NCBI GenBank assembly: GCA_934572335.1
Contig: CAKTKU010000002.1
Coordinates: forward strand, 58,945 to 122,944
Length of the DNA stretch: 64,000 nucleotides
From: an uncultured Oscillospiraceae bacterium
GTDB lineage: Bacteria; Bacillota; Clostridia; Oscillospirales; Oscillospiraceae
Direction of reading: 5' to 3'
The notes below the pieces were generated by a model. The model ran no database searches. It was not told where the DNA came from and saw only the letters and a list, made by a program, of their open reading frames with translations. How positions within the stretch are numbered: position 1 is the first letter of the stretch; every line of letters starts with the position of its first letter. The position numbers and the translations under genes were made by a program. Shown in pieces: positions 29,219-43,696 of the stretch.

Positions 29219-29565
29219 TGTTCAGCAGGTATAGAACACCCCCGGCAAGCGTGCGCTGGGTCTCCTATCCCAATTGGTTTGAGAGTCTATATAGCAAGAA
29301 ACTACTTTTACTACTCTTATTGACCATTTCACAAGTTTGTATGCTGTGCAGCACTGGTTTATAGTAACCAACTTATAAAATTTGAGCCCTTTTGCTGAGC
29401 CCACGCGGGGAGCGCCCCGCTAAATCAATAAGGCAACAGAAGTTGCCGCCGCATTCCGCGGAAAATCGGCATTCGACCCGGCTGTCCGTGTGGCCTTGGC
29501 TGCGCTTATGGCACAGCGGTCGTCATCTTGCTTCGGATATATCGACTATCCAATTGAGATGCTTT

Positions 29566-31677: not shown

Positions 31678-33310
31678 TCCGTGCGTTCTCTCATGCCGCT
31701 ACACTCGCCGCGATGCCGTCATCGCCGTGGTTCTGGCCTTCGTTGTTCTCATAGCCGCACTGGGTTCACTGTACCCAAGCTGCGGATGGGGCGACGATTT
31801 CGCCGCTTACATCAACGAGGGCATCGCCATCGCGAACGGCACATTTCACGAGCTTGCAAAGCTCAACTATATAATGCACCCCTCCATTCTGCCGGAAGGC
31901 ACCGGCGGCGAGCTTGTATATGTCTGGGGCTACCCGCTCATGCTCGCAGTCGTGTATTTGCTTTTCGGTTATGACACCGTCGGTTTCAGCAGCATTATAT
32001 ACTACAAGCTGCCGTCCGTTCTGTGCTTTGCGGCGTTCGCTGCCGTGCTGTATCTTTTCCTGCGGCGGCGGTTTCCCGCATGGTCATCCGCGCTGCTCAC
32101 CGCCGCGTATTGCGGCGCGCCTGTTTTTTACGATCTTATAAATTCCGTTTACAGCGATGTCGTGTATATGTTCCTGTGCACGCTTGCGCTGCTTTGTACA
32201 GAGGTATATTTTTCACGAGGTATAAAAAAACGGCTCGTCCCCGGCATTCTTATCGGCGTACTGCTATGGTACACCTACGAAGTCAGGCTCAACGGGCTTG
32301 CGCTGCTCGGTGTTTTTCTGCTGTGCCATATTGTCACGCTCATTCGGAGCAAAGACTTCAGCAAAGCGGATATTGTAATTCATCTCGCGCCGTATCTCAG
32401 CTTTTTCGTCCTCAAGCTCGTGTCAGAACGTTTGCTTCTGCTCCCGCCGACGCTGAACTCCGGCGATGTGAGTGGCTTTGACATCAGCACAACGCTCTCA
32501 AATGTGCTCTACTATATCATCAACCTTGCCGACACTGTCCGTGCTTCCGTCTATTGTGCGATATTTGCGTTCGTCCCCAAATCCGTTCTTACCTGGCTTC
32601 CGCAGAGCGTATATAATTTTGTGTTCGACGTTTCCAGCGTGTTATCATGGCTCACTCTCGCGCTGACCGCAGTCGGACTGATAAGCGATGGCATAAAGCG
32701 CAATCTTCAACTCTCCGTATACTTCGTCGGCAGTGCGATCGGCACGTGCCTTTTACCATACACGCAAGGGCTGCGCTACCTTTTCGGCATCATGCCGGTA
32801 ATGCTGATGTTTGCCGGATACGGCTGCCGTGCCGTTTATGCCTTCATTCTCAGCCGTCTGCGCTGCCGGGCAAACGCCAAACATTCTCGCCGCTTGACTT
32901 ATCCCGTGCGGGCTGTGCTTGCTGCCATGCTGTGCGTTGCGTTCTTCTCACAGACGGCAATGCTTGATGTACAAAATCTCCGCACTCTCCGTGCCGCTGA
33001 TGGGGACATTTACGCCAACATGTCGGGCGCATACTCGCCGGATGCGATCGCCGTATACAAATACATTCAGCAAAACACCGCTGATGATGACATCATCGTG
33101 TTCCACAAGCCGCGGGCAATGTACCTCAACACCGGCCGCATTAGCTTTTCATATCTCTACAATGACCGGAGCCCGCTTGACGCGGACTGGTGTGTGTTGA
33201 CGGAGTTTTTTGTTGACTACTACACGAACACAGAGACCCCTGATTGGTTCTCCTCATTCGAGCCTGTAATGACCAGCGGTGAGTTGACCGTTATGAGAAA
33301 AACACAATAA
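31667..33310 (+). CDS. polytopic membrane protein, GT-C-fold glycosyltransferase-like (ArnT/PMT-like)
   Basis: About 547 aa, more than 10 TM helices with large loops. ORF track begins at 31586; first plausible ATG at 31667 overlaps the upstream gene by 11 nt. Family assignment is weak. Confidence 0.4.
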   Translation: MVLDPCVLSCRYTRRDAVIAVVLAFVVLIAALGSLYPSCGWGDDFAAYINEGIAIANGTFHELAKLNYIMHPSILPEGTGGELVYVWGYPLMLAVVYLLFGYDTVGFSSIIYYKLPSVLCFAAFAAVLYLFLRRRFPAWSSALLTAAYCGAPVFYDLINSVYSDVVYMFLCTLALLCTEVYFSRGIKKRLVPGILIGVLLWYTYEVRLNGLALLGVFLLCHIVTLIRSKDFSKADIVIHLAPYLSFFVLKLVSERLLLLPPTLNSGDVSGFDISTTLSNVLYYIINLADTVRASVYCAIFAFVPKSVLTWLPQSVYNFVFDVSSVLSWLTLALTAVGLISDGIKRNLQLSVYFVGSAIGTCLLPYTQGLRYLFGIMPVMLMFAGYGCRAVYAFILSRLRCRANAKHSRRLTYPVRAVLAAMLCVAFFSQTAMLDVQNLRTLRAADGDIYANMSGAYSPDAIAVYKYIQQNTADDDIIVFHKPRAMYLNTGRISFSYLYNDRSPLDADWCVLTEFFVDYYTNTETPDWFSSFEPVMTSGELTVMRKTQ

Positions 33311-33312
33311 AA

Positions 33313-33352
33313 ATCAAGAGGCAGTCCTTTTAAGGCTGCCTCTTGATTTTTT
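33313..33352. terminator. bidirectional intrinsic terminator
   Basis: ATCAAGAGGCAG-N10-CTGCCTCTTGAT hairpin flanked by A- and T-runs, between convergent genes. Confidence 0.7.
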
Positions 33353-33355
33353 ACC

Positions 33356-34585
33356 TCACCCCAATGCTTCCAGCACTGTGCGCAGCGTTACATCGAGCGC
33401 GCCGTTATTGTCGACGGTCACGTCGGCAAAGCGCGCGTACATGGGTTTGCGCTTTGCGTACAGCGCGGCAAGATCTGTCGACTGTGAGATAGGTCTTCCG
33501 TCCACCGGCAGACGCTCCAGCGCGCGCTCAAGGCAGACGATCGTGCCGTTCTGGTGCAGCAGCGGATAGTTCTCCCCGCGCGTGACAGCGCCGCCGCCGG
33601 TCGCGATGACCGCGCCGGAGAGCTTGCCCAGCTCCGCGAGCGCCGCGGTCTCCGCGCGCCTGAACGCCTCCTCGCCGCGCGTGCGTATAAGCGTCTCCGC
33701 GCTCTCGCCGGTCATCTCCAGCACCTTATCGTCGCTGTCGTACACCGGTCTGCCGAGCTTTTCCCCAAGCGCCGCGGCGACGGTGGTCTTGCCGCTGCCG
33801 GGCATGCCGATGATGACGATATTCTGCATATTCCGCGCGAGCGCGCCGCGTATGCGCGGTATCTCGCTGTCGGGGATAGTGCTGCCCATGAAAAGCTCCG
33901 CCGAGCGCTTTGCCTGCGCCACCAGCATATACAGCCCGCTCTCACAGCGGATGCCAAGCGCCTCCGCCTGCAGGATGAGCGCGGTGCGCGCGGGGTTATA
34001 CACCACGTCCAGTACGCCCTCGCATTGCGGAAAATCGCGCAGATCGACCGCCGCCGCGCCGTTTTTCGGGTACATACCCACAGGCGTCGCGTTGACGATG
34101 ACCTCCGCGTCGCGGTACGGCGCGAGATCGCCGTAGCCCGCGCCGCCATGGCGCGACAGCACGCGCACGCTCGCCGCGCCTAGCTTTTCCAGTACGGCGC
34201 ACACCGTGACCGAAGCGCCGCCGCTGCCGAGCACGACCGTCTTCTTGCCGCGCACGTCTATGCCGCTGTGGCAGACAAGGCTCTCAAAGCCGAAGGCGTC
34301 CGTATTGTCGCCGTAAATGCTGCCGTCAGACCGGCGCACGACCGTGTTGACACTGCCGAGCCGCCGCGCCATGTCGGAGAGCTCGTCGCAGAGCGCGGCG
34401 ACCGTTTTTTTATATGGGATCGTAACGTTGAAGCCGTCGAGCCCGCTGTCTCTGACAAAATGCTCGACCTCGTCTGGCGCGCACTCATAGAGCTTGTACT
34501 CATAATCTGCAAGCATGGCGTGTATCTCGGGCGAATAGCTGTGTCCCAACTTTTCGCCAAGCAGCCCGCATCTGAGCTTGTCCAT
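33356..34585 (-). CDS. aroE: bifunctional shikimate dehydrogenase / shikimate kinase (AroE-AroK fusion)
   Basis: N-terminal AroE half (GHSYSPEIH, NVTIPYK, NTD), C-terminal AroK half with P-loop GMPGSGKTT; start taken at MDKLRCG, 1-nt overlap with pheA stop (ORF track extends to 34630). Confidence 0.8.
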   Translation of the reverse strand: MDKLRCGLLGEKLGHSYSPEIHAMLADYEYKLYECAPDEVEHFVRDSGLDGFNVTIPYKKTVAALCDELSDMARRLGSVNTVVRRSDGSIYGDNTDAFGFESLVCHSGIDVRGKKTVVLGSGGASVTVCAVLEKLGAASVRVLSRHGGAGYGDLAPYRDAEVIVNATPVGMYPKNGAAAVDLRDFPQCEGVLDVVYNPARTALILQAEALGIRCESGLYMLVAQAKRSAELFMGSTIPDSEIPRIRGALARNMQNIVIIGMPGSGKTTVAAALGEKLGRPVYDSDDKVLEMTGESAETLIRTRGEEAFRRAETAALAELGKLSGAVIATGGGAVTRGENYPLLHQNGTIVCLERALERLPVDGRPISQSTDLAALYAKRKPMYARFADVTVDNNGALDVTLRTVLEALG

Positions 34586-35727
34586 CACACCACCTCGCTG
34601 TAGCTGCCGAGATAGTTGAAGCTCTCGCATATATCGGAAAGCTCGCCCATGAGGAGCATGAACTGCGGCGAGTAGACCGAGGTCTCAAGATCGAAATAGA
34701 ACATGAACTCAAAATTCCTGTCCGGCATGGGACGGCTTTCGAGCTTGTTGAGGTTGATGCCGAGCGCGTAGAAGCGCGAGAGCACCTTGTAGAGCGAGCC
34801 AGCTTTGTGCGGCAGGGTCATCATGAGGCTCGTCCTGTCCGCGCCGGGGTATATCTCAAGATTTTTGGAGATGCAGATGAAGCGCGTGAAGTTGCTGCCC
34901 TGATCCTGCACGGCGGGCTTGAGGCATTCCAGATTATAAAGCTTCATGCACTCGCGCGAGGAGAGCGCCGCCGCGTCGCCGCGCTCCGACTCCGCCACGA
35001 GCTTTGCCGCGACGGCGGTGTTCTCGCACGGGATGATCTTCACGCCCCTAAGCGTGGAGAGGAACGCGGAGCACTGGTTTATCGCCTGCTCGTGGGAGTA
35101 TATCTCCTTTATATCCTCCAGCTTCGTGCCGGGGCGGACGAGGAGATTGTGGTCGACCTTTATACGCACGGAGCGGACGATGCGGAAATTATGCTTCATC
35201 ATGAGGTCGTACACTGCGTTGACAGAGCCCGCCGTGCTGTTTTCAAGCGGGACGACGCCGTAGCGGCAGAAGCCGCTCTCAATGGCGGAGAACACCGCGT
35301 CAAAGCTGTTGCAAAAGAAAATGTTCGGCATTTTGAAAAGCCGCTCGCACGCGAGCTGGGAATACGCACCCTCCACGCCCTGGCACGCCACTGGGACATT
35401 CTCCGGGAAGAGCTGGGGCGTATTCTTTATCGCGTTTTCGATCTCCGCGGGGAGCGTGCTCTTCGTGCCGATAAAACGTGCCTGACTGCTGCGGCTGAGC
35501 TCCATGAGCATGGAATAGAGCGTCACGGCGTACTCGCTCAGCTCCTCCGGCACCTTGTCCGCGACGGCGCGCAGCTTCTCCCGCTCGCGCTTCGCGTCCA
35601 GCACGGGGAGGTCGTTTTCGCGCTTATACTCCGCGATATGCCGCGCGACCTCCATACGCTTTTCAAACGCCGCAAGAAGCTGCTCGTCCGCCGCGTCCAT
35701 CTCTCTGCGATAGTCGTTAAGATCCAT
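34585..35727 (-). CDS. pheA: chorismate mutase / prephenate dehydratase (PheA, CM-PDT-ACT)
   Basis: N-terminal AroQ-type chorismate mutase helix, PDT domain, C-terminal ACT domain (ESRP motif region). Confidence 0.85.
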   Translation of the reverse strand: MDLNDYRREMDAADEQLLAAFEKRMEVARHIAEYKRENDLPVLDAKREREKLRAVADKVPEELSEYAVTLYSMLMELSRSSQARFIGTKSTLPAEIENAIKNTPQLFPENVPVACQGVEGAYSQLACERLFKMPNIFFCNSFDAVFSAIESGFCRYGVVPLENSTAGSVNAVYDLMMKHNFRIVRSVRIKVDHNLLVRPGTKLEDIKEIYSHEQAINQCSAFLSTLRGVKIIPCENTAVAAKLVAESERGDAAALSSRECMKLYNLECLKPAVQDQGSNFTRFICISKNLEIYPGADRTSLMMTLPHKAGSLYKVLSRFYALGINLNKLESRPMPDRNFEFMFYFDLETSVYSPQFMLLMGELSDICESFNYLGSYSEVV

Positions 35728-35732
35728 TTTCT

Positions 35733-36803
35733 TTACCTCATTTCCTTTCTGCGCGCGAGAAGCGCGTCATACACGGCGAGCGCCGCCGCCGCTTCAACGC
35801 AGGGCACGGCGCGCGGCACGATACAGGGGTCATGTCTGCCGGTTATTCTGATGTCCTTAGCCTCAAGCGCGGCCATGTCCACGCTGTGCTGCGTTTTTGC
35901 GATCGACGGCGTCGGCTTTATCGCGGCGCGAAAGATGATGGGCATGCCGTCGCTTATGCCGCCGAGAATGCCGCCGCAGTTATTGGTCACGGTGACGACC
36001 GCGCCGTTTTCAACGGCGAACGGGTCGTTATCCTCGCTGCCGCGCATACCGGCGGCGGCAAAGCCCGCGCCGAACTCCACGCCCTTGACGGCGGGGATGC
36101 CGAACACGGCGGCGGCAATGCGGTTTTCCATGCCGCCGAACATCGGGTCGCCCAGCCCTGCCGGAACGCCGATGACCGCGCACTCCACCACGCCGCCGAC
36201 GGAGTCTCCCTCCGCCCGCGCCGCGGCTATTGCCGCGCGCATTTCCTCGCCGCGCGCGTCGTCCACCGTGGGGAAGTCCTTCTCCGCCGTGGAGGCTGTC
36301 AGCTCGCCCGCGTCCTCGATATCCGCGATGGACTTTATGCGGCTGATGATCTCTATGCCCTCGCGCGAGAGAAGCTGCTTGCATATTCCCCCGGCAATGC
36401 ACAGCGGCGCTGTCAGCCGCCCGGAGAAGTGCCCGCCGCCGGAGGCGTCCTGCGCGCCGCGGAACTTCACCTGCGCGGTGTAGTCCGCGTGCCCCGGGCG
36501 GGGCGTCAGGCGCAGGGCATCGTAATCCTGCGGGCGGGTGTTGGTGTTGCGTATTACCGCGGTGAGCGGCGCGCCGCAGGTGACGCCGCCGACAACGCCG
36601 CAGAGGAATTCCGGCGCGTCGCTCTCGCGGCGGGGCGTGCTGTACTCATTGCGCCCCGGGGCGCGGCGGTCGGTAAAGCGGCGGAGCTCGTCCATGTCTA
36701 TCCGCTCTCCCGCAGGTATCCCCTCGATCGTCACGCCGATCGCGTCGGAGTGCGACTGGCCGAATATCGTGATGCGTATATTTTCGCCGTAGCTGCTGCT
36801 CAT
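35733..36803 (-). CDS. aroC: chorismate synthase
   Basis: GxSHG-type N-terminus (FGQSHSDAIGV), RPGHADY, whole-length AroC pattern; 356 aa. Confidence 0.9.
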   Translation of the reverse strand: MSSSYGENIRITIFGQSHSDAIGVTIEGIPAGERIDMDELRRFTDRRAPGRNEYSTPRRESDAPEFLCGVVGGVTCGAPLTAVIRNTNTRPQDYDALRLTPRPGHADYTAQVKFRGAQDASGGGHFSGRLTAPLCIAGGICKQLLSREGIEIISRIKSIADIEDAGELTASTAEKDFPTVDDARGEEMRAAIAAARAEGDSVGGVVECAVIGVPAGLGDPMFGGMENRIAAAVFGIPAVKGVEFGAGFAAAGMRGSEDNDPFAVENGAVVTVTNNCGGILGGISDGMPIIFRAAIKPTPSIAKTQHSVDMAALEAKDIRITGRHDPCIVPRAVPCVEAAAALAVYDALLARRKEMR

Positions 36804-38053
36804 TCCGTTACCTCCAAGCCGTCAAGGTCGTCCCAGAATCCGGGGTAGGATTTCGCCGCGCAGTCGCTGCCGAGGATGGTGACGTCCCCCCGGCTGACAG
36901 AGGCGGCGACGGCGGCGGACATTGCGATGCGGTGGTCGCGGCAGGCGTCCGCCGTGCCGCCCGCGAGCGCCGGTACGCCGCGTATTATAAGCCCGTCCTC
37001 AAGCTCCGTGATGTCCCCGCCGAGCGCGGAGATGAGCCGCGCGGTGCTTGCAAGGCGGTCAGACTCCTTCAGCCGAAGCCGCGCGGCGTTCACAATGCGC
37101 GTCTCGCCCTGCGCCGTCGCCGCGGCCACGCTGAGCACCGGGATAAGATCCGGTATCTCTCGCGCGTCGACCGTGCAGCCGGTGAGCGCGGCGCGGCGCA
37201 CGGTCACGCTATTGCCGTGCTCCCGCACATCAGCGCCGAGGCGGCGGAGAATATCCAGCACGGCGCGGTCGCCCTGCGGCGAGCGCAGATTCAGCCCGTC
37301 CACCGTCACACCGCGCGGCGAAAGCGCTCCCATGCACAGAAAGAACGCGGCGTTCGACCAGTCGCCCTCCACGGCGCAGTGCCGCGGCATGGCGGCGCGC
37401 TGCGCGCCGGGGATGGTGTATACATTATCATTCTTTTCAAATTTCAGCTTCGCAAGCTCAAGCGCGGCCTCCGTCATGGCGACGTAGGGCGCAGATTCCA
37501 GCTGTCCCGTGACCTCAAGACGGCTAACGCCGTCAAGCCGCGGCAACGCCATCAGAAGCCCCGAGATATACTGCGACGACACCCCGCCGCTGACGGAGTA
37601 CGTCCCCACGCGGAGCTTCCCGGAGCAGATGAGCCGCGCACCGTCGCGCTCAAGGCGCATTCCGTGCTCTTCCAGCACCGCGTCCAGCGGCGCGAGAGGG
37701 CGCTGGGGCAGCCGTCCCTCCATCTCAAACACCGCGTCCGCGCCGAGCGCGCCCACTAGCGGCAGCAGAAAGCGCAGGGTCGACCCGCTCTCTCCGCAGG
37801 GGAGAATGCAGATTTCCTCCTTGGCGCGCTCTATCGGGCGGACGGTCATCTCCTCGCCCTCGATGCGTATATCCGCGCCGAGCGCGTTGAGGCAGCGCAC
37901 CGTGGCGGTGATGTCATTCGACGCGCCCTCGCAGCGGAGCGTGCACTCACTCTCGCCGAGCGCGGCACAGATGAGCAGCCGGTGCGCCTGTGATTTGGAC
38001 GCCGGGATATGTACGCGCCCGGTGCGCGCGCCGCAGCGTACGGTCGTATTCAT
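36800..38053 (-). CDS. aroA: 3-phosphoshikimate 1-carboxyvinyltransferase (EPSP synthase)
   Basis: Start taken at MNTTVRCG (417 aa; ORF track extends a further 103 Arg-rich codons upstream, overlapping aroB). Carries the LPCGESGSTLRFL and conserved C-terminal AroA motifs. Confidence 0.85.
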   Translation of the reverse strand: MNTTVRCGARTGRVHIPASKSQAHRLLICAALGESECTLRCEGASNDITATVRCLNALGADIRIEGEEMTVRPIERAKEEICILPCGESGSTLRFLLPLVGALGADAVFEMEGRLPQRPLAPLDAVLEEHGMRLERDGARLICSGKLRVGTYSVSGGVSSQYISGLLMALPRLDGVSRLEVTGQLESAPYVAMTEAALELAKLKFEKNDNVYTIPGAQRAAMPRHCAVEGDWSNAAFFLCMGALSPRGVTVDGLNLRSPQGDRAVLDILRRLGADVREHGNSVTVRRAALTGCTVDAREIPDLIPVLSVAAATAQGETRIVNAARLRLKESDRLASTARLISALGGDITELEDGLIIRGVPALAGGTADACRDHRIAMSAAVAASVSRGDVTILGSDCAAKSYPGFWDDLDGLEVTE

Positions 38054-39111
38054 GCTATCCCTCCGTCTCTGAGCCAGCCGGGCAGCTCGTCCGCCGCCGC
38101 CGGAACTATGCGGCAGCGGCCTATATTCTCCGGCACGACGAGGCGCAGTCTGCCGCCCGCAATCTTCTTGTCGCTGAGCATTGCGCGGCTGAGCTCGTCC
38201 GCCGTGTACTCTGTCTCTGTCGGCAGTCCGCATTTTTTCAGCAGCGCCGCCGTGCGCTCCAAGGATGACATGGGGCATATGCCGCGCGCCGCGGCCGCGC
38301 GCATTATCACGACCGTGCCGATCGCCACGGCGCTGCCGTGCGGCACGGCAAAGCCGCTGCACTTTTCAATGGCATGCCCGACGCTGTGGCCGAGGTTCAG
38401 AAGGAGCCTGCGCCCGGTGTCAAATTCGTCCTCCTCGACGATGTCGCGCTTCATCTCCACACATCGCGCGATCACGCGCTCAAGCTGCGGATGAACGCCG
38501 CCGCGCTCAAGCGCGGCAAAGAGCTCCGCATCGCCGAGCACGCCGTATTTCACGACCTCGGCACAACCGTTGGCAAACTCCGCCTCCGGCAGCGTTGAGA
38601 GCGTGTCCGGGTCGCACAGCACCGCGCACGGCTGATAAAAGCAGCCCGCCTGATTCTTCCCCGAGGGGAGGTCGACGGCGGTCTTGCCGCCGACGGAGGA
38701 ATCGACCGCGGCAAGCAGCGTTGTGGGTATCTGCGCGAACGCCGTGCCGCGCTGATACGTCGCCGCGGCGAAGCCTGCAAGATCGCCCGTCACGCCGCCG
38801 CCGAGCGCGGCGACAAGGTCGGTGCGGGTGAAATGCTCGCGCGAGAGGAAGTCCATGAGCCTTGCGTAGGTCTCAAGCGTCTTATATTGCTCCCCGCCGG
38901 GGTACACGAACGACACCACGCGGTAGCCCGCGCGCTCAAGCGAGGCGGCAAGCCGCGCGCCGTACAGCGCCGCGACGCGCTCCCCGGCGACGATGGCGGC
39001 GGTGGAGCCGCGCTCGTTCACGCGCCTGAGCTCGTCCCCCGCGCGGTCGAGTATGCCGCGCTCTATAATAACGTCATATTCCCTTGACGCTTTCACGTGT
39101 ATAGTCGTCAA
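38050..39111 (-). CDS. aroB: 3-dehydroquinate synthase
   Basis: GGGVTGDLAGFAAATYQRG nucleotide-binding motif and HxxGH metal ligands (NLGHSVGHAIE). Confidence 0.9.
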   Translation of the reverse strand: MTTIHVKASREYDVIIERGILDRAGDELRRVNERGSTAAIVAGERVAALYGARLAASLERAGYRVVSFVYPGGEQYKTLETYARLMDFLSREHFTRTDLVAALGGGVTGDLAGFAAATYQRGTAFAQIPTTLLAAVDSSVGGKTAVDLPSGKNQAGCFYQPCAVLCDPDTLSTLPEAEFANGCAEVVKYGVLGDAELFAALERGGVHPQLERVIARCVEMKRDIVEEDEFDTGRRLLLNLGHSVGHAIEKCSGFAVPHGSAVAIGTVVIMRAAAARGICPMSSLERTAALLKKCGLPTETEYTADELSRAMLSDKKIAGGRLRLVVPENIGRCRIVPAAADELPGWLRDGGIA

Positions 39112-39941
39112 TGCCCGTCGACCTCCGCCTTTATTCTCCTGCCCTCGTCGAGAAGCTCCGTCAGGCGCTGCTTGTCGCCGTCGGCAATAGCGTCGCGGTA
39201 CTGCTGCATACTGCCGATGAAGCAGTCTATCTCCTGTAAAAGGAAGTCACTGTTCTCCATAAAAAGCTCCGCCCACATTGGCGCATTGAGCCATGCCACG
39301 CGCGTCAGATCCTTGTAGCTGCCCGCCGAGAAGCCCTTGTGGCGCGCGGCGGTCGGGCTTTTGACATATGCGTTGGAGACGACGTGTGCCAGCTGGGAGG
39401 TGAACGCGATCATCGCGTCGTGCGCCTCGGCATCCGTGAACGAGAAGCGCCCGAACCCCGCCGGGGCGAGCAGGGTCTTTGCCCGCTCCATCAGCTCAAA
39501 ATCGTCCGGATTCGGCGGAACGATGACCATCGGCGCGCCGTGGTATAGCTCGGCACGCGCGTATTTGAAGCCGGAGTTGTGCGTGCCCGCCATCGGGTGT
39601 CCGCCGAGAAAATGCACGCCGTTTGCCTCGGCGATGGGGAAGCACGATGCGCATACCTCGCGCTTTGTGCCGCAGCAGTCGAGCACCACGGGCTTATCCC
39701 CGATATACGGCGCCATATCGGCAAAATAATCTATCGCTGCGCGCGGGTAGAGCGTGATGAGCACGAGGTCGCACCCGGATATATTCTCCCGCGTCAGCTC
39801 CGCGTCCACGCAGCCGCTCATTATCGCGAAATCCAGCACGCTGCGCGTGCGGTTAAAGGCGAGCACGCGCTCTCCCGCGGCGGAGTACGCCTTGGCAAAC
39901 GAGCCGCCGATGAGCCCCAGCCCGACAATGCCGACCGTCAT
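39108..39941 (-). CDS. tyrA: prephenate dehydrogenase
   Basis: Start taken at [15 protein letters not shown] (Rossmann GxGxxG); 277 aa; ORF track extends further upstream in an Arg-rich stretch. Confidence 0.8.
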
Positions 39942-40942
39942 GCCGTCACGACCTCTCTCACGCGCATGACCTTTTTCACAAGCGCGTCGTACTCCTCCGG
40001 GCGCAGGGACTGCGCGCCGTCGCACAGGGCGTGCATGGGGTCGTTGTGCACCTCGATTATCAGTCCGTCCGCACCGGCGGCCGTGGCGGCGAGCGCCATG
40101 GGCGGCACAAGGCGGGCGATGCCCGTGGCGTGGCTGGGGTCGACGATGATGGGCAAATGCGTCAGCTCGCGCAGCATCGGCACCGCCGCGAGGTCGAGGG
40201 TGTTGCGGGTGTAGTCGTCAAAGGTGCGGATGCCGCGCTCGCAGAGGACGACCTGCTCGTTCCCGCCCGCCATGATGTACTCCGCGCTCATAAGAAGCTC
40301 CTTGAGCGTGTTGGCAAGCCCGCGCTTGAGCAGTATCGGCTTTCTCAGCTTGCCCAGCTCGCGCAGGAGGTCAAAGTTCTGCATATTGCGCGCGCCGACC
40401 TGAATGAGGTCGACATCCTCGAACTCCGGCAGGGCGGACACGCTCATTATCTCCGTGACGATGGGCAATCCCGTCTCGCGCCGGGCGATTTTCAAAAGCT
40501 CTATCCCGTCGCCCTTGAGCCCCTGAAAATCGTAGGGGGAAGTGCGTGGCTTGTACGCGCCGCCGCGCAGCATGTTCGCGCCCGACGCTTTCACCGCCTT
40601 TGCCACGGTGACGATCTGCTCCTCAGATTCGACCGAGCAGGGACCCGCGATGAGGCAGAAGTTGCCCCCGCCGATCTTCACGCCGCCGACATCCACAACG
40701 GTGTCATCCGGATGGAACTTGCGGTTGCAGCACTTGAACGGCTCCGTCACGCGCGTGACGGAATCGACGATGCCGAGACTGGAGATGAGGTCCATGTCCA
40801 CCTTCGTCGTGTCGCCGATAAGACCGAGCACCGTCTGATAATCGCCGACGGAGATGTGAACGCCGAGGTTCTGTCCCTTCAGCCAGTCGATAAGCTGGTC
40901 GCGCTTTTTTTCTTCAACACCGTGCTTGAGTACAACAATCAT
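39938..40942 (-). CDS. aroF: 3-deoxy-7-phosphoheptulonate (DAHP) synthase, type I-beta with N-terminal regulatory domain
   Basis: Start MIVVLKHGV (GGAGG RBS); about 80-aa N-terminal ferredoxin-like regulatory domain, then KDO8PS-like barrel ([22 protein letters not shown]). Confidence 0.85.
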
Positions 40943-40956
40943 CGTTTTTTCCTCCG

Positions 40957-40994
40957 GATAAAAAATTAAGCGGCACAGGCGTAACCTGTGCCGC
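40957..40994 (-). terminator. intrinsic terminator (attenuator) immediately upstream of aroF RBS
   Basis: On the minus-strand transcript: GCGGCACAGG-UUACG-CCUGUGCCGC (10-bp perfect stem) followed by UUAAUUUUUUAU, ending about 12 nt before the GGAGG RBS of aroF. Confidence 0.7.
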
Positions 40995-41045
40995 ATGAAA
41001 CCTACTTGCTGATCGTAGCATTTTTTGCATCACAAATTACCCTTA

Positions 41046-41102
41046 CTATTTTTCAACAGTAAAGTAGTAATAAGCGTATGCAAAAATAATGCTGCTTCTC
41101 AT
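41046..41102 (-). CDS. 18-codon leader peptide MRSSIIFAYAYYYFTVEK (Tyr/Phe-rich)
   Basis: ATG preceded by AAGGAG at 7 nt; 4 Tyr + 2 Phe codons clustered (F-A-Y-A-Y-Y-Y-F); lies between the promoter and the terminator of the aro operon leader. Confidence 0.6.
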   Translation of the reverse strand: MRSSIIFAYAYYYFTVEK

Positions 41103-41133
41103 AAGAAAGCTCCTTAGTTAAATCTACGGTTAG

Positions 41134-41162
41134 AGTATACAAATTCGCGCCAACATTGTCAA
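41134..41162 (-). promoter_or_regulatory. sigma-A promoter TTGACA-17-TATACT driving the aro operon leader
   Basis: On the minus strand: TTGACA (41162..41157), 17-nt spacer, TATACT (41139..41134). Confidence 0.55.
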
Positions 41163-41279
41163 CTGCATTTTTTCACAAAATGCCGCGGGTTTCGCGCGAA
41201 AAGTTTGGTATATTACTGCTCATGGCAAAAACTCACGCCGCGGATGTGTGCCGCGGCGTGAAAGGGCTTTCGTTTTCTA

Positions 41280-41414
41280 TTACTCCTCGGGGCTGAAATC
41301 GTCCTTGCCGACGCCGCACAGCTCGCAGGTGAAGTCTTCGGGAAGGTCTTCCCACTTCGTGCCCTGCTCGTCCTCGTCGTAGACCCAGCCGCACACATTG
41401 CATACATATTTCAT
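41280..41414 (-). CDS. rd: rubredoxin
   Basis: 44 aa [44 protein letters not shown] with the two CxxCG iron-binding knuckles; AGGAGG RBS; absent from the ORF track (below length cutoff). Confidence 0.85.
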
Positions 41415-41438
41415 GGTGTTTCCTCCTCTATAAGTCGA

Positions 41439-42002
41439 TCAGAAATATCTTTTCAGCAGACCGGCGAAGGCCTTGCCGTGTCTCGCCTCGTCTCGCGCCA
41501 TCTCGTGGATGGTGTCATGCAGTGCGTCGAGATTATACTTCTTGCAGAGCTTTGCAAGGTCGGTCTTGCCGAGGGTGGCGCCGTTCTCCGCCTCGACGCG
41601 CATCTCAAGGTTTTTCTTCGTGCTGTCGGTGACGACCTCGCCCAGAAGCTCGGCGAACTTGGCGGCGTGCTCCGCCTCTTCAAGCCCTGCCTTCTCCCAG
41701 TACAGGCCGATCTCGGGATAACCCTCGCGGTGGGCGACGCGCGCCATCGCAAGATACATGCCGACCTCGGTGCACTCGCCCATGAAGTTGGCGCGCAGAC
41801 CTTCGATGATCTCGTTGCGCACTTCCTCCGGCACATCCGCGCCGAACTGCTTGCCGACGCCGACAACGTGCTCCGCTGCCCAGCTCATATCGTCCTTCTG
41901 CTCGACGAACTTCGAGCCGGGGACATGGCACTGGGGGCAGAACTCAGGGGGCGTATCACCCTCGTGAACATAACCGCAAACCGGGCAAACCCATTTCTTC
42001 AT
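41439..42002 (-). CDS. rbr: reverse rubrerythrin (N-terminal rubredoxin-like domain + ferritin-like diiron domain)
   Basis: Start at [11 protein letters not shown] (AGGAGG RBS); CPVCG...CPQCH rubredoxin-like knuckles precede the diiron four-helix-bundle (ExxH motifs). Confidence 0.85.
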
Positions 42003-42084
42003 AATAATTTCCTCCTCATTAGTGTTTTGTACTGTTTTATATTCATTCCATATATCTTTATCGCGCAAGCGCAATAAACAAAAA

Positions 42085-42607: not shown

Positions 42608-43696
42608 TTATTGCGCGCCATCTGGCTGCTCGACCAATGCTGCGAGGGCCGGGGCGGCGCTCTCACCGAAGAGGCGCACGGCGGCAAGTGCCTCCTGCAA
42701 GGTATTGCCGCTGCTGCCGACCTCAAGGATCATGGAGCCGGGCGAGAGATGCTGGTTATACCGCTGGGGGACGAGCTGCACAGGACGCATGAGCGTGGGG
42801 TGCGCGGTGCTGACCGCCTGCTGGAGATACACCGCGAGGGCGAGGTTATCCCGCCAGCCGCTGTGGGCAAGCCCGCTCTCATCCGTGCCGATGAGCATCA
42901 TCACCTGACTTGCGCACACGCCGTCCTCCTCCGCCATGGTCTTGTACACCGTGCCGTTCTCACCGAGCGCATCGCGGTGGACGTCGATGACCATACGGAT
43001 GCTGGGGTAGTCCGCCAGCCAGTTGGCTATCGCCTGTGCCGAGCGCGTGTAGGAGCCGGTATAGCTGGGGTAATCGTATATCCCCCGGTCGTGGATGACG
43101 TGCAGCCCCGCGTTTTCCAGCACCGCCGTCAGCTCGTCGCCGACGCGGACGATGTTGTACTGCGTGTCCTCGGTGCGCGCCTCGTCGCTCGCCTCGTATT
43201 TATCCAGCCCTGCGGGGGTGTACGCCTCGCTGGAATGCGTGTGGATGATGAGTATCTGCGCGCCCTCCGCTGGGAAGCGAAACGCCGGTCCCGCGAGCAG
43301 CAGCTGCCCGATGTCGGTCTTGTACCCCGTCTGATTCTTGATGGCAAGCCCGCCCTCTATCGTGGTCTCCAATATCTCCTCGCGCCCGTCCGGCGTTTTC
43401 GTGACGGTGATGGCCTCCACGGTCTCGCCGCCGTCCGCGCTGTCGGGGATGTACGCCGCGATGGGCGCGGCTGTCGGCGCGGGCGCGGTCTCCCGCATCG
43501 TAGTGTCAACATCCGGCGGCGCGGTCTCCGCCGCGGACGGGGCATCCGCCGCTGTCACGGTCACATTCTTCATGCGACCCGCCTCTATGGTCTGCCGCGC
43601 GCGGCGTTCGGCATAGGCGTACAGCGGCGAGGCGGAGAGGATATACATGCTCAGCGCCATCACAAGCGCGGCGGAAATGCTTCTTATCGCGCGCAT
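42608..43696 (-). CDS. spoIIP: stage II sporulation protein P (SpoIIP)
   Basis: N-terminal membrane anchor, low-complexity linker, C-terminal SpoIIP/amidase-like domain (ILIIHTHSSEAY, MVIDVHRD). Confidence 0.8.
   Translation of the reverse strand: MRAIRSISAALVMALSMYILSASPLYAYAERRARQTIEAGRMKNVTVTAADAPSAAETAPPDVDTTMRETAPAPTAAPIAAYIPDSADGGETVEAITVTKTPDGREEILETTIEGGLAIKNQTGYKTDIGQLLLAGPAFRFPAEGAQILIIHTHSSEAYTPAGLDKYEASDEARTEDTQYNIVRVGDELTAVLENAGLHVIHDRGIYDYPSYTGSYTRSAQAIANWLADYPSIRMVIDVHRDALGENGTVYKTMAEEDGVCASQVMMLIGTDESGLAHSGWRDNLALAVYLQQAVSTAHPTLMRPVQLVPQRYNQHLSPGSMILEVGSSGNTLQEALAAVRLFGESAAPALAALVEQPDGAQ

What the first reader, a model, noticed from the sequence alone, without database searches (positions are those of the whole stretch)
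40943..41170. Candidate ribosome-mediated attenuator (Tyr/Phe-rich leader peptide + terminator) controlling a 7-gene aromatic amino-acid supraoperon
Upstream of aroF-tyrA-aroB-aroA-aroC-pheA-aroE::aroK the minus strand shows, in order: a sigma-A promoter (TTGACA-17-TATACT); an SD (AAGGAG); an 18-codon ORF MRSSIIFAYAYYYFTVEK with 4 Tyr and 2 Phe codons in a run of 8; about 50 nt later a perfect 10-bp GC-rich hairpin plus U-tract ending roughly 12 nt before the aroF RBS. This is the classic trp/pheL-style attenuation architecture, responding to the two end-products whose branch enzymes (tyrA, pheA) are in the operon. Firmicutes usually use T-boxes or TRAP for aro/trp control, and I see no T-box consensus here. 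The Tyr codons (UACUAC) are complementary to a GUAGG segment between the peptide and the terminator, a possible alternative pairing.
Basis: seen in the sequence. Interest (0 to 1): 0.65.

Follow-up and report, generated by a model that had tools for sequence, protein, structure and literature searches.

The report
Tyrosine/phenylalanine leader-peptide attenuator of aro operon
A tiny upstream gene packed with tyrosine and phenylalanine codons, followed by a switchable transcription stop signal, very probably lets this gut Clostridium turn on its seven-gene aromatic amino-acid pathway only when those amino acids run short; the mechanism is textbook, but this family appears undescribed and is widespread in its bacterial order.

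Summary
On the minus strand there is an 11/12 sigma-A promoter, a Shine-Dalgarno (SD) site, the 18-codon ORF MRSSIIFAYAYYYFTVEK, and an 11-bp GC-rich terminator ending 27 nt before aroF.

- **Switch:** an antiterminator exists. GUAAUUUGUGAUGC (41040-41026) pairs either with the Tyr/Phe codons or with the terminator's 5' arm and loop.
- **Conservation:** 72 of 80 related Oscillospirales genomes have an aromatic-rich short ORF plus a strong terminator before aroF (≥6 aromatics in 8: 62/81 regions versus 3/405 shuffles).
- **Co-evolution:** both alternative helices fit their own partners better than foreign ones (0/5000 permutations each).
- **Geometry:** a ribosome stalled on aromatic codons leaves the switch strand free. 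A ribosome at the stop codon covers it (94% of loci each).
- **Other genes:** in metagenomes the same leader also precedes pheA, where its codon run holds Phe only, and a PF04392 ABC-transporter binding protein, where three of five peptide variants are Tyr-rich.
- **Not known families:** no T-box or other Rfam family and no NCBIfam model match.

Verdict: a new member of the classical trpL/pheL-type ribosome-mediated attenuators, in a phylum classed as having runaway transcription. Regulation itself is untested.

The parts
41134..41162 (-). Sigma-A type promoter: -35 TTGACA (41162-41157), 17-nt spacer, -10 TATACT (41139-41134)
   Evidence: 11 of 12 matches, and the only promoter-like site in 32800-41300. 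Equivalent promoters scoring at least 10/12 occur upstream of the leader ORF in 47 of 72 related loci, against 1 of 72 shuffles.
41110..41115 (-). Shine-Dalgarno AAGGAG of the leader ORF, 7 nt before the ATG
   Evidence: An SD-like 4-mer sits at -18..-4 in 61 of 72 related leaders.
41046..41102 (-). Leader ORF, 18 codons plus TAG: MRSSIIFAYAYYYFTVEK
   Evidence: Homologous aromatic-rich ORFs are present in 72 of 80 related genomes.
41061..41084 (-). Regulatory codon run, codons 7-14: UUU GCA UAC GCU UAU UAC UAC UUU (F A Y A Y Y Y F)
   Evidence: Across the family the leader peptides total Phe 337, Tyr 273 and Trp 4 residues.
41055..41093 (-). Region 1: 5' strand of the anti-antiterminator hairpin P1, lying inside the ORF and including all the Tyr/Phe codons
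   Evidence: MFE structure. The P1 inner helix is 92.8% paired with compensatory changes in 47 sequences. Native region 1 x region 2 duplexes beat non-native ones, 0/5000 permutations.
41017..41050 (-). Region 2: 3' strand of P1, containing the stop codon. Its sub-segment 41040-41026 (GUAAUUUGUGAUGC) is the 5' strand of the antiterminator
   Evidence: The conserved motif GTAAKRGNNATTTGTGNTGC recovered further family members from metagenomes.
40981..40995 (-). Region 3: terminator 5' arm plus loop, which is the 3' strand of the antiterminator
   Evidence: the antiterminator fold is -18.8 kcal/mol while the terminator 3' arm is still untranscribed. It drops to -7.6 and releases the arm if nucleotides up to about 41033 are covered by a ribosome at the stop codon.
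40960..40994 (-). Intrinsic terminator (attenuator): GCGGCACAGGU-UAC-GCCUGUGCCGC followed by UUAAUUUUUU
   Evidence: The hairpin is -22.1 kcal/mol. The terminator helix is 93.1% paired, with compensatory changes at 12 of 12 pairs.
40951..40955 (-). SD GGAGG of aroF
39938..40942 (-). aroF: DAHP synthase with an N-terminal ferredoxin-like domain
   Evidence: PF00793 at 6e-75 and PF18152 at 1e-20.
39108..39941 (-). tyrA: prephenate dehydrogenase (ATG 39941 overlaps the aroF stop)
38050..39111 (-). aroB: 3-dehydroquinate synthase
36800..38053 (-). aroA: EPSP synthase (likely start ATG 38053 with an SD)
35733..36803 (-). aroC: chorismate synthase
34585..35727 (-). pheA: chorismate mutase, prephenate dehydratase and ACT domain
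33356..34588 (-). aroE::aroK fusion: shikimate dehydrogenase plus shikimate kinase (start GTG 34588 or ATG 34585)
33306..33351 (-). Operon-end terminator: AAAAATCAAGAGGCAG ... CTGCCTCTTGATTTTT
   Evidence: Read directly. The pattern scan did not list it.

Best explanation
This is a ribosome-mediated (leader-peptide) transcription attenuator that senses the supply of charged tRNA-Tyr and tRNA-Phe.

Transcription starts about 25 nt upstream of a short ORF. While RNA polymerase transcribes the roughly 130-nt leader, a ribosome translates the ORF.

When Tyr-tRNA and Phe-tRNA are plentiful, the ribosome runs to the TAG stop codon. There it covers the first half of region 2 (41040-41026). Region 3 is then free to pair with region 4, the terminator forms, and transcription stops before aroF.

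When Tyr-tRNA or Phe-tRNA is scarce, the ribosome stalls on codons 7-14, which lie inside region 1. Region 2 is neither covered nor paired with region 1. It pairs with the terminator's 5' arm and loop (antiterminator, -18.8 kcal/mol) before the 3' arm is made. Polymerase then reads through into aroF-tyrA-aroB-aroA-aroC-pheA-aroE::aroK.

Without translation, regions 1:2 and 3:4 both form and transcription terminates.

Shown here: the sequence elements, the mutually exclusive structures, their conservation and co-evolution, and the ribosome-footprint geometry. Inferred: actual translation of the ORF, stalling, and the response of read-through to Tyr or Phe.
For: **Anatomy in the window.** Promoter, SD, ORF and terminator are all present. 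The free-RNA MFE is P1 (1:2) plus the terminator, with z = -7.5. The antiterminator 41040-41026 x 40995-40981 is -18.8 kcal/mol, falling to -7.6 when a ribosome at the stop codon is modelled.

**Conservation.**
- At least 6 aromatic residues in 8 occur in 62 of 81 upstream regions (80 related Oscillospirales loci plus the window), against 3/405 shuffles and 2/81 reverse complements.
- 72 regions (71 related loci plus the window) have an aromatic ORF plus a terminator of mostly -15 to -27 kcal/mol, at a median 34 nt before aroF.
- SD-like sites occur in 61 of 72. Promoters scoring at least 10/12 occur in 47 of 72, against 1 of 72 shuffles.

**Structure.**
- P1 plus terminator is 85.8% paired, against 71.3% in shuffles and 34-53% when slid, and 33 of 35 pairs show compensatory changes.
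- The antiterminator core, tested on an alignment not fitted to it, is 76.5% paired against 21-63% when slid.
- Native region 2 x terminator-arm duplexes average -15.1 kcal/mol against -11.6 for foreign pairs, 0/5000 permutations.
- Native region 1 x region 2 duplexes average -11.1 against -8.6, 0/5000 permutations.

**Geometry.** Region 2 begins at least 12 nt after the last aromatic codon in 94% of loci. It begins no more than 15 nt after the stop codon, or inside the ORF, in 94%.

**Codons track the regulated gene.** The same leader upstream of pheA has a run containing only Phe (MYVSILFAFLFTFTGLQ). Upstream of a PF04392 ABC-transporter binding protein, three of five peptide variants are Tyr-rich (6-7 Tyr against 1-3 Phe), one leans to Tyr (5:3) and one is balanced (4:4). 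Upstream of the aroF operons that contain both tyrA and pheA it is mixed.

**Other classes.** No T-box or other Rfam family matches.
Against: - No expression, 3'-end or reporter data exist for any member.
- In an equilibrium fold of the complete leader with a stalled ribosome modelled, the terminator (-22.1) still wins. The switch therefore has to be kinetic, as it is in the classical systems.
- Column-wise covariation in the antiterminator core is modest, because that core is conserved in sequence.
- The P1/terminator counts come from an alignment fitted to that structure.
- In the window, a 5' helix (the SD region pairing with the spacer, 41113-41095 with 41015-40997) could re-form behind a stalled ribosome and compete topologically with the antiterminator. 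It is not conserved (25 of 61).
- Bacillota are classed at phylum level as having RNA polymerases that outrun ribosomes (PMC13323073). That would work against a mechanism needing a closely following ribosome unless the polymerase pauses.
- The pheA-linked Phe-only leaders probably represent a single lineage.
Confidence: 0.85

Rival explanations
1. The terminator/antiterminator switch is real but is set by a trans-acting factor: an RNA-binding protein of the TRAP or PyrR type, an uncharged tRNA as in a T-box, or a small ligand. On this view the short ORF is incidental.
For: Firmicutes commonly use such devices. Region 2 (GTAAKRGNNATTTGTGNTGC) is unusually well conserved for a leader-peptide attenuator. 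The phylum is classed as having runaway transcription.
Against: No T-box or any other Rfam family matches, even at E up to 10. An in-frame ATG with an SD and an aromatic codon run is kept in 72 of 80 genomes while the rest of the peptide and its length vary. The position of region 2 tracks the stop codon and the aromatic run as ribosome footprints would require. The codon make-up changes with the regulated gene. The conservation of region 2 is explained by its need to pair both with codon-constrained region 1 and with region 3.
Confidence: 0.05
2. The ORF encodes an arrest peptide or a functional micropeptide. The nascent aromatic peptide would stall the ribosome in response to free amino acid, as TnaC does, or would act in trans, rather than sensing tRNA charging.
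For: A recurrent peptide pattern (F-A-A-E/Q, then a Y/F run, then F-T or F-F) is seen across the family. Runs of bulky aromatic residues could slow peptide-bond formation or passage through the exit tunnel.
Against: The conserved non-aromatic residues coincide with RNA helices: the FAAQ codons pair with UUUGUGCUGCAA, and the YFT codons pair with AGUAAGG. Peptide length (13-42 aa) and C-termini are not conserved. No NCBIfam family matches.
Confidence: 0.04
3. The hairpin is a constitutive, leaky terminator or a stabilising 5' structure. The ORF merely modulates translation or mRNA stability, with no amino-acid-specific switch.
For: The equilibrium fold favours the terminator in every modelled ribosome state. 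There are no experimental data.
Against: Region 2 co-evolves with both of its alternative partners. The footprint geometry is conserved. The element is specifically associated with aromatic biosynthesis and transport genes.
Confidence: 0.05

Closest known systems
E. coli pheL-pheA attenuator (Rfam Phe_leader RF01859)
   Same: It has a short 5' ORF with a run of aromatic codons, followed by 1:2, 2:3 and 3:4 alternative hairpins and an intrinsic terminator before an aromatic biosynthesis gene. The peptide [15 protein letters not shown] shares the F-A-F-x-F-T-F pattern with the pheA-linked member of this family (MYVSILFAFLFTFTGLQ). In both, Ala and Thr codons supply G/C for pairing.
   Different: pheL uses Phe codons only, controls a single gene, and is found in gamma-proteobacteria. 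No Rfam family reached E of 10 or better in the window leader on the RNA's strand. My family model scores the E. coli leader only 16 bits (E 5e-4 in a 501-nt search, which is not significant at genome scale). The resemblance is therefore in design. Homology is not shown.
Corynebacterium glutamicum aroR leader upstream of aroF (Neshat et al. 2014, as summarised in PMC11802643)
   Same: It is a leader peptide upstream of a DAHP-synthase operon containing both Phe and Tyr codons (Phe-Tyr-Phe), and it works by ribosome-mediated attenuation.
   Different: It is in Actinobacteria, has only three regulatory codons, and is reported to respond to Phe but not to Tyr. Here there are 5-16 aromatic codons per peptide, with Tyr nearly as frequent as Phe.
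uORFC-13-1 motif upstream of aroF in Acholeplasma (Brewer et al. 2021, PMC8632094)
   Same: It is a predicted uORF with promoter elements and U-rich Phe codons, immediately upstream of an intrinsic terminator and of aroF, in a Gram-positive-derived lineage.
   Different: It is reported only from Acholeplasma and environmental sequences, with at least one Phe codon and no Tyr-rich run described. Relatedness to the present family was not tested because no model was available.
Predicted His leader-peptide attenuators in Firmicutes (Bacillus cereus group, Peptostreptococcaceae, Erysipelotrichales: PMC2965389 and PMC9413887) and the S. aureus Leu-rich ilv attenuator peptide (PMC5794164)
   Same: They are classical leader-peptide attenuators occurring in Bacillota, where T-boxes are otherwise usual.
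   Different: They sense different amino acids, regulate different operons and occur in different lineages. None concerns aromatic amino acids or Oscillospirales.
T-box riboswitches and TRAP, the usual aromatic-pathway control in Bacilli
   Same: They have the same output logic: an antiterminator competing with a terminator upstream of aro/trp genes, sensing amino-acid sufficiency.
   Different: Their sensor is an uncharged tRNA or a protein, not a translating ribosome. No T-box match was found here.

Membership tests
Ribosome-mediated leader-peptide transcription attenuator (trpL/pheL/hisL class) | Short ORF with its own SD and start codon at the 5' end of the transcript, upstream of a biosynthetic operon | tested here: met
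   The median distance from the -10 element to the leader ATG is 33 nt across the family.
Ribosome-mediated leader-peptide transcription attenuator (trpL/pheL/hisL class) | Cluster of codons for the amino acid(s) made by the regulated operon | tested here: met
   The window has 4 Tyr and 2 Phe in 8 codons, and the operon contains tyrA and pheA. The feature is conserved in 72 of 80 relatives.
Ribosome-mediated leader-peptide transcription attenuator (trpL/pheL/hisL class) | Intrinsic terminator between the ORF and the first structural gene | tested here: met
   (-22.1 kcal/mol).
Ribosome-mediated leader-peptide transcription attenuator (trpL/pheL/hisL class) | Antiterminator (2:3) mutually exclusive with the terminator (3:4), and an anti-antiterminator (1:2) whose 5' strand carries the regulatory codons | tested here: met
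   This is computational and comparative evidence. There is no structure probing.
Ribosome-mediated leader-peptide transcription attenuator (trpL/pheL/hisL class) | Footprint geometry: a ribosome at the stop codon masks region 2, and a ribosome stalled at the regulatory codons leaves it free | tested here: met
   94% of 72 loci meet each condition.
Ribosome-mediated leader-peptide transcription attenuator (trpL/pheL/hisL class) | Read-through increases when the cognate charged tRNA is limiting, and depends on translation of the ORF | not testable with these tools
   This needs Term-seq or reporter assays in a cultured carrier.
T-box riboswitch (RF00230) | Specifier loop and conserved T-box sequence recognised by the covariance model | tested here: not met
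   There is no match at gathering score in the window or in 20 related loci, and none at E of 10 or better in 40850-41350.
Rfam amino-acid leader families (Phe_leader RF01859 and the other leader models in Rfam 15) | Significant match to the family covariance model | tested here: not met
   Searches gave no leader family hit. In the reverse test, my model R1 scores E. coli pheL at only 16.1 bits.
C. glutamicum aroR / Acholeplasma uORFC-13-1 | Sequence or structure homology to those leaders | not tested
Only context and design were compared.

The most novel reading that the evidence does not exclude
This is one member of an order-wide (Oscillospirales) and so far uncatalogued leader-peptide regulon. 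One conserved RNA/peptide module would be re-used in front of the aro supraoperon, pheA alone, and a TrpX/HisX-type (PF04392) ABC importer, with its codon mix tuned to each target: mixed Tyr+Phe, Phe only, or Tyr-leaning.

It operates in a phylum classed as having runaway transcription. It would therefore imply locally enforced transcription-translation synchrony in Clostridia, for example polymerase pausing at the P1 hairpin or at U-rich Phe codons. It would also provide a natural reporter for testing that synchrony.
Probability: 0.5. Interest if true: 0.6.

Novelty: new member of a known kind. Interest (0 to 1): 0.45.

Why it matters
Aromatic amino-acid supply by abundant gut and rumen Clostridia (Oscillospiraceae, Ruminococcaceae, Acutalibacteraceae) feeds both microbial and host metabolism. 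This element is the likely main transcriptional control of the whole shikimate-to-Phe/Tyr pathway in these mostly uncultured organisms.

- It adds a Tyr+Phe-sensing family to the short list of leader-peptide attenuators in Bacillota.
- It supplies a covariance-model-ready family for annotation. About 110 members were collected here (72 in genomes, 48 in metagenomes).
- It suggests that an uncharacterised PF04392 ABC transporter imports tyrosine or other aromatic amino acids.
- Ribosome-mediated attenuation needs the lead ribosome to keep up with RNA polymerase. A conserved family of such attenuators in a phylum classed as having runaway transcription therefore offers a concrete test of whether, and how, coupling or pausing is achieved in Clostridia.

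Tried and rejected
- **Rfam.** I scanned the whole window at gathering score and the leader at E of 10 or better. There is no T-box, Phe_leader or other cis-regulatory family. The weak hits (mir-11, snoRNAs, STnc310) are noise.
It is absent from the MFE and constrained folds, and the GUAGG spacer is not conserved.
- **Equilibrium folding with a blocked ribosome footprint.** The terminator always wins, so this cannot discriminate between states. I replaced it with folds of the nascent RNA lacking the terminator 3' arm.
- **RNAalifold on a plain MAFFT alignment.** It recovered only 5 terminator pairs, because two subfamilies use different registers in P1. I replaced it with a hand-annotated seed, a covariance model and alignment-free duplex tests.
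- **SD sequestration of the leader ORF in the full-length fold.** It occurs in the window but is not conserved (25 of 61), so I dropped it from the model.
- **Other amino-acid-rich leader ORFs or second copies in the window.** None was found.
- **NCBIfam scan of ten family peptides.** No hit.
- **Literature.** Eight full-text searches found no description of this family. Subscription-only papers could not be searched, for example the early comparative-genomics work on aromatic regulons in Gram-positive bacteria.
- **Exceptions.** Of the eight related genomes without a qualifying leader:
  - In five (L006, L007, L015, L051, L057) aroF follows another gene or a plain promoter, with no Rfam element.
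  - In L067 aroF follows another gene and a terminator.
  - L060 has an odd GC-rich upstream region.
  - L003 and L064 carry recognisable leaders with fewer aromatic codons, and L003 also matches model R1.
Full report
**1. Observation**

- The promoter is TTGACA-17-TATACT at 41162-41134, with 11 of 12 matches. It is the only promoter-like site between 32.8 and 41.3 kb.
- AAGGAG lies at 41115-41110.
- An ATG at 41102 opens MRSSIIFAYAYYYFTVEK, ending at TAG 41048-41046.
- The hairpin GCGGCACAGGU-UAC-GCCUGUGCCGC spans 40994-40970. It has 11 pairs and folds at -22.1 kcal/mol. It is followed by UUAAUUUUUU.
- The aroF SD GGAGG is at 40955-40951 and the aroF ATG at 40942.

The upstream rubredoxin-like ORF has its own terminator (41262-41232), so the leader begins a separate transcription unit.

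Pfam confirms the seven genes: DAHP synthase, prephenate dehydrogenase, dehydroquinate synthase, EPSP synthase, chorismate synthase, chorismate mutase/prephenate dehydratase, and a shikimate dehydrogenase::kinase fusion. Five of the six junctions overlap by a few nt (one to four, mostly four), and pheA starts 5 nt after the aroC stop. A strong terminator follows the last gene (33351-33306).

The ORF is not a chance feature. It is the only short ATG+SD ORF in the 64-kb window with at least 6 aromatic residues in 8. The 186-nt leader folds at -65.4 kcal/mol, z = -7.5.

**2. The switch in the window**

In the free RNA, the ORF from codon 4 to codon 16 (41093-41055, region 1) pairs with 41050-41017 (region 2) in a long hairpin. 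The terminator forms independently.

I then folded the nascent RNA as it exists before the terminator's 3' arm is made.
- GUAAUUUGUGAUGC (41040-41026) pairs with GCAUGCGGCACAGGUUAC (40995-40981), which is the terminator's 5' arm and loop. This antiterminator is -18.8 kcal/mol, provided region 1 is unavailable.
- If the first 8 or so nucleotides of that strand are also removed, as under a ribosome sitting at the stop codon, the fold drops to -7.6 kcal/mol and no longer touches the terminator arm.

This is the classical 1:2 / 2:3 / 3:4 arrangement, with all Tyr and Phe codons lying inside region 1.

Equilibrium folds of the complete leader always keep the terminator. The choice must therefore be kinetic, as in the trp operon.

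The Tyr codons pair with AGUAAGGGUAAU.

**3. Comparative evidence**

A search of one genome per species with the AroF protein returned 80 loci at 64-90% identity. By record title they are all Clostridia of the Oscillospiraceae / Ruminococcaceae / Acutalibacteraceae kind, including Hominicoprocola, Angelakisella, Pseudoflavonifractor, Lawsonibacter, Faecousia and Oscillibacter. Hominicoprocola is placed in Oscillospiraceae.

*Presence of the parts*
- Upstream of aroF, 62 of 81 regions contain a short ORF with at least 6 F/Y/W in 8 residues. The controls give 3 of 405 shuffles and 2 of 81 reverse complements.
- Using a 450-nt upstream window and a threshold of at least 5 in 8, 72 regions have such an ORF followed by an intrinsic terminator. 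These terminators are mostly -15 to -27 kcal/mol and end a median 34 nt before aroF.
- An SD-like site precedes 61 of 72 ORFs. The peptides are 13-42 aa long with 5-16 aromatic residues. In total they hold 337 Phe, 273 Tyr and 4 Trp.
- A promoter scoring at least 10/12 lies a median 33 nt upstream of the ORF in 47 of 72 loci, against 1 of 72 shuffles.

*Exceptions.* In L006, L007, L015, L051, L057 and L067, aroF follows another gene, a terminator or a plain promoter. L060 has an odd GC-rich upstream region. L003 and L064 carry recognisable leaders with fewer aromatic codons.

**4. Conserved RNA design**

The leaders share recognisable sequence.
- The end of the aromatic run (UAUUACUUUUUU or UACUUUACU) pairs with a stretch that includes the stop codon (AAAAAGUAAUAG or AGUAAGG).
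- The codons just before the run (often F-A-A-E/Q, UUUGCAGCACA) pair with UUUGUGCUGCAA.
- That same UUUGUGCUGC pairs with the terminator arm GCCGCACAG, plus the loop.

This explains the recurring non-aromatic residues of the peptide as constraints at the RNA level.

I built a covariance model from 12 sequences with P1 and the terminator annotated. It finds the window element at 46.4 bits (E about 4e-9) and 46 of the genome loci at E below 2e-5. It finds nothing else in the window.

On that 47-sequence alignment:
- P1 plus terminator is 85.8% paired, against 71.3% in shuffles and 34-53% when slid. Compensatory changes occur at 33 of 35 pairs. This alignment was fitted to that structure.
- The antiterminator core was not used for fitting. 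It is 76.5% paired, against 21-63% when slid. Its covariation is small but above shuffles (0.189 against 0.152, reached by 1 of 500). One position is a conserved mismatch.

Registers differ between subfamilies, so I added alignment-free tests.
- Each locus's own region 2 pairs with its own terminator arm and loop better than with foreign ones: -15.1 against -11.6 kcal/mol, 0 of 5000 permutations. The loop sequence visibly tracks the 5' end of region 2. Examples are GUAAUU/GGUUAC, GCGAUU/GAUUCGC, GGUUUG/CAAACC and GUGAUU/GAAUCAC.
- Region 1 against region 2 behaves the same way: -11.1 against -8.6 kcal/mol, 0 of 5000.
- In nascent-RNA folds, 77% of terminator 5'-arm bases pair upstream in the stalled state. 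The figure is 52% with the upstream sequence shuffled and 40% with a ribosome at the stop codon.

**5. Geometry**

Region 2 starts a median 20.5 nt after the last aromatic codon, and at least 12 nt after it in 94% of loci. It starts either inside the ORF (50% of loci) or no more than 15 nt after the first base of the stop codon; together these make 94%.

A ribosome stalled on aromatic codons therefore leaves region 2 free. One that finishes the ORF covers it. Short-ORF and long-ORF variants satisfy the same rule by different routes, which is hard to explain without translation.

**6. Beyond aroF**

A metagenome scan with the region-2 motif returned 80 loci, and 48 of them match the model. The downstream gene varies.
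- Most precede aroF.
- Nine precede pheA. Those leaders encode M(M)YVS.(L/M)FAF.FTFTGLQ, with four Phe and no Tyr in the run.
- About fourteen precede a lipoprotein of Pfam PF04392, an ABC-transporter substrate-binding protein. Of five distinct peptides, three are Tyr-rich (6-7 Tyr against 1-3 Phe, for example MKTVVSNVAYRFYYYSYFYFKDKVRAICDARS), one leans to Tyr (5:3) and one is balanced at 4:4.
- One precedes a MerR-type regulator gene.

Eight representatives of the pheA-, transporter- and MerR-linked groups were examined. All have a terminator and a predicted antiterminator duplex, weaker (-9.3 to -10.9 kcal/mol) in three transporter-linked ones.

Codon content that follows the regulated gene is what a codon-reading sensor predicts. 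The pheA group is probably a single lineage, so this counts as one observation, not nine.

**7. Comparison with what is known**

The mechanism is the textbook one. The closest cases are these.
- E. coli pheL. Its peptide [15 protein letters not shown] resembles the pheA-linked member. However, no Rfam family reaches E of 10 or better in the window leader on the RNA's strand. My model gives E. coli only 16 bits in a 501-nt search. The design is shared and homology is unproven.
- C. glutamicum aroR upstream of aroF, with Phe-Tyr-Phe, reported as responsive to Phe but not Tyr.
- The Acholeplasma uORFC-13-1 motif upstream of aroF.
- Leader-peptide attenuators predicted or shown in Firmicutes for His and Leu.

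I found no description of this family in Rfam 15, in NCBIfam, or in eight full-text searches. Subscription-only literature was not searchable.

I therefore rate it a new member of a known kind. It is not a new mechanism.

**8. Significance and limits**

Bacillota are classed at phylum level as having runaway transcription, in which RNA polymerase outpaces ribosomes (PMC13323073). A conserved ribosome-dependent attenuator family in Clostridia is therefore mildly unexpected. It offers a way to test how synchrony is achieved; pausing at the P1 hairpin or at U-rich Phe codons is my speculation.

Nothing here shows translation of the ORF, stalling, or regulation. Which of Tyr and Phe is actually sensed is open, since aroR in C. 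glutamicum responds only to Phe.

Confidence in the attenuator model is 0.85.

Noticed in passing
L092, L105, L128, L150, L129, L126, L097, L153, L155 (metagenome loci; e.g. L092:9772-9917, minus strand): The same leader family sits directly upstream of pheA (chorismate mutase/prephenate dehydratase). There the codon run contains only Phe (MYVSILFAFLFTFTGLQ). It resembles E. coli PheL, [15 protein letters not shown].
   Followed up: partly
L089, L101, L108, L125, L148, L156, L158, L109, L099, L149, L094, L096, L146, L120 (e.g. L089:555-619, plus strand): The same leader family sits upstream of a lipoprotein of Pfam PF04392, an ABC-transporter substrate-binding protein of the TrpX/HisX type. 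Three of the five distinct peptides are Tyr-rich (6-7 Tyr against 1-3 Phe), one leans to Tyr and one is balanced. This suggests an aromatic, possibly tyrosine, importer under the same control. L102 has the leader upstream of a MerR-type regulator gene.
   Followed up: partly
window 41030 opposite 40991 (alignment A4, columns 148/202): One position in the middle of the antiterminator helix is a mismatch in 35 of 43 sequences (A-G in the window, U-C in most). The terminator pairs perfectly at that base. It may keep the antiterminator weaker than the terminator.
   Followed up: no
window 41113-41095 with 41015-40997: In the window's full-length fold, the leader SD and start region pair with the spacer before the terminator, sequestering the SD. 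This is not conserved: the SD is paired in 25 of 61 relatives.
   Followed up: yes
window 29466-29522, minus strand: Rfam match to SpF59_sRNA (ldcC RNA, RF02440) at 65.7 bits against a gathering score of 37.2. It is the only Rfam family found in the window.
   Followed up: no
window 33356-40942: The seven-gene operon has no recognisable 3-dehydroquinate dehydratase (aroD/aroQ), so that step must be encoded elsewhere. Shikimate dehydrogenase and shikimate kinase are fused in one 410-424 aa protein.
   Followed up: no
window 33306-33351: A strong, symmetric (potentially bidirectional) terminator lies right after aroE::aroK. The pattern scan did not list it.
   Followed up: no
window 41213-42074, minus strand: Immediately upstream are a rubrerythrin gene (41439-42074) and a 64-aa ORF ending in a rubredoxin-like CxxC motif with no Pfam hit. 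They have their own terminator at 41262-41232. SpoIIP is at 42608-43696.
   Followed up: no
L001:2238-2500: In the closest relative (AroF 90% identical) the near-identical leader and terminator lie 114 nt before aroF, against 27 nt in the window. The extra spacer was not examined.
   Followed up: no
L201:7584-7726 (E. coli K-12 pheL-pheA leader): The Oscillospirales family model aligns end to end with the E. coli pheL attenuator at 16.1 bits. This is too weak to claim homology but reflects a very similar layout.
   Followed up: partly
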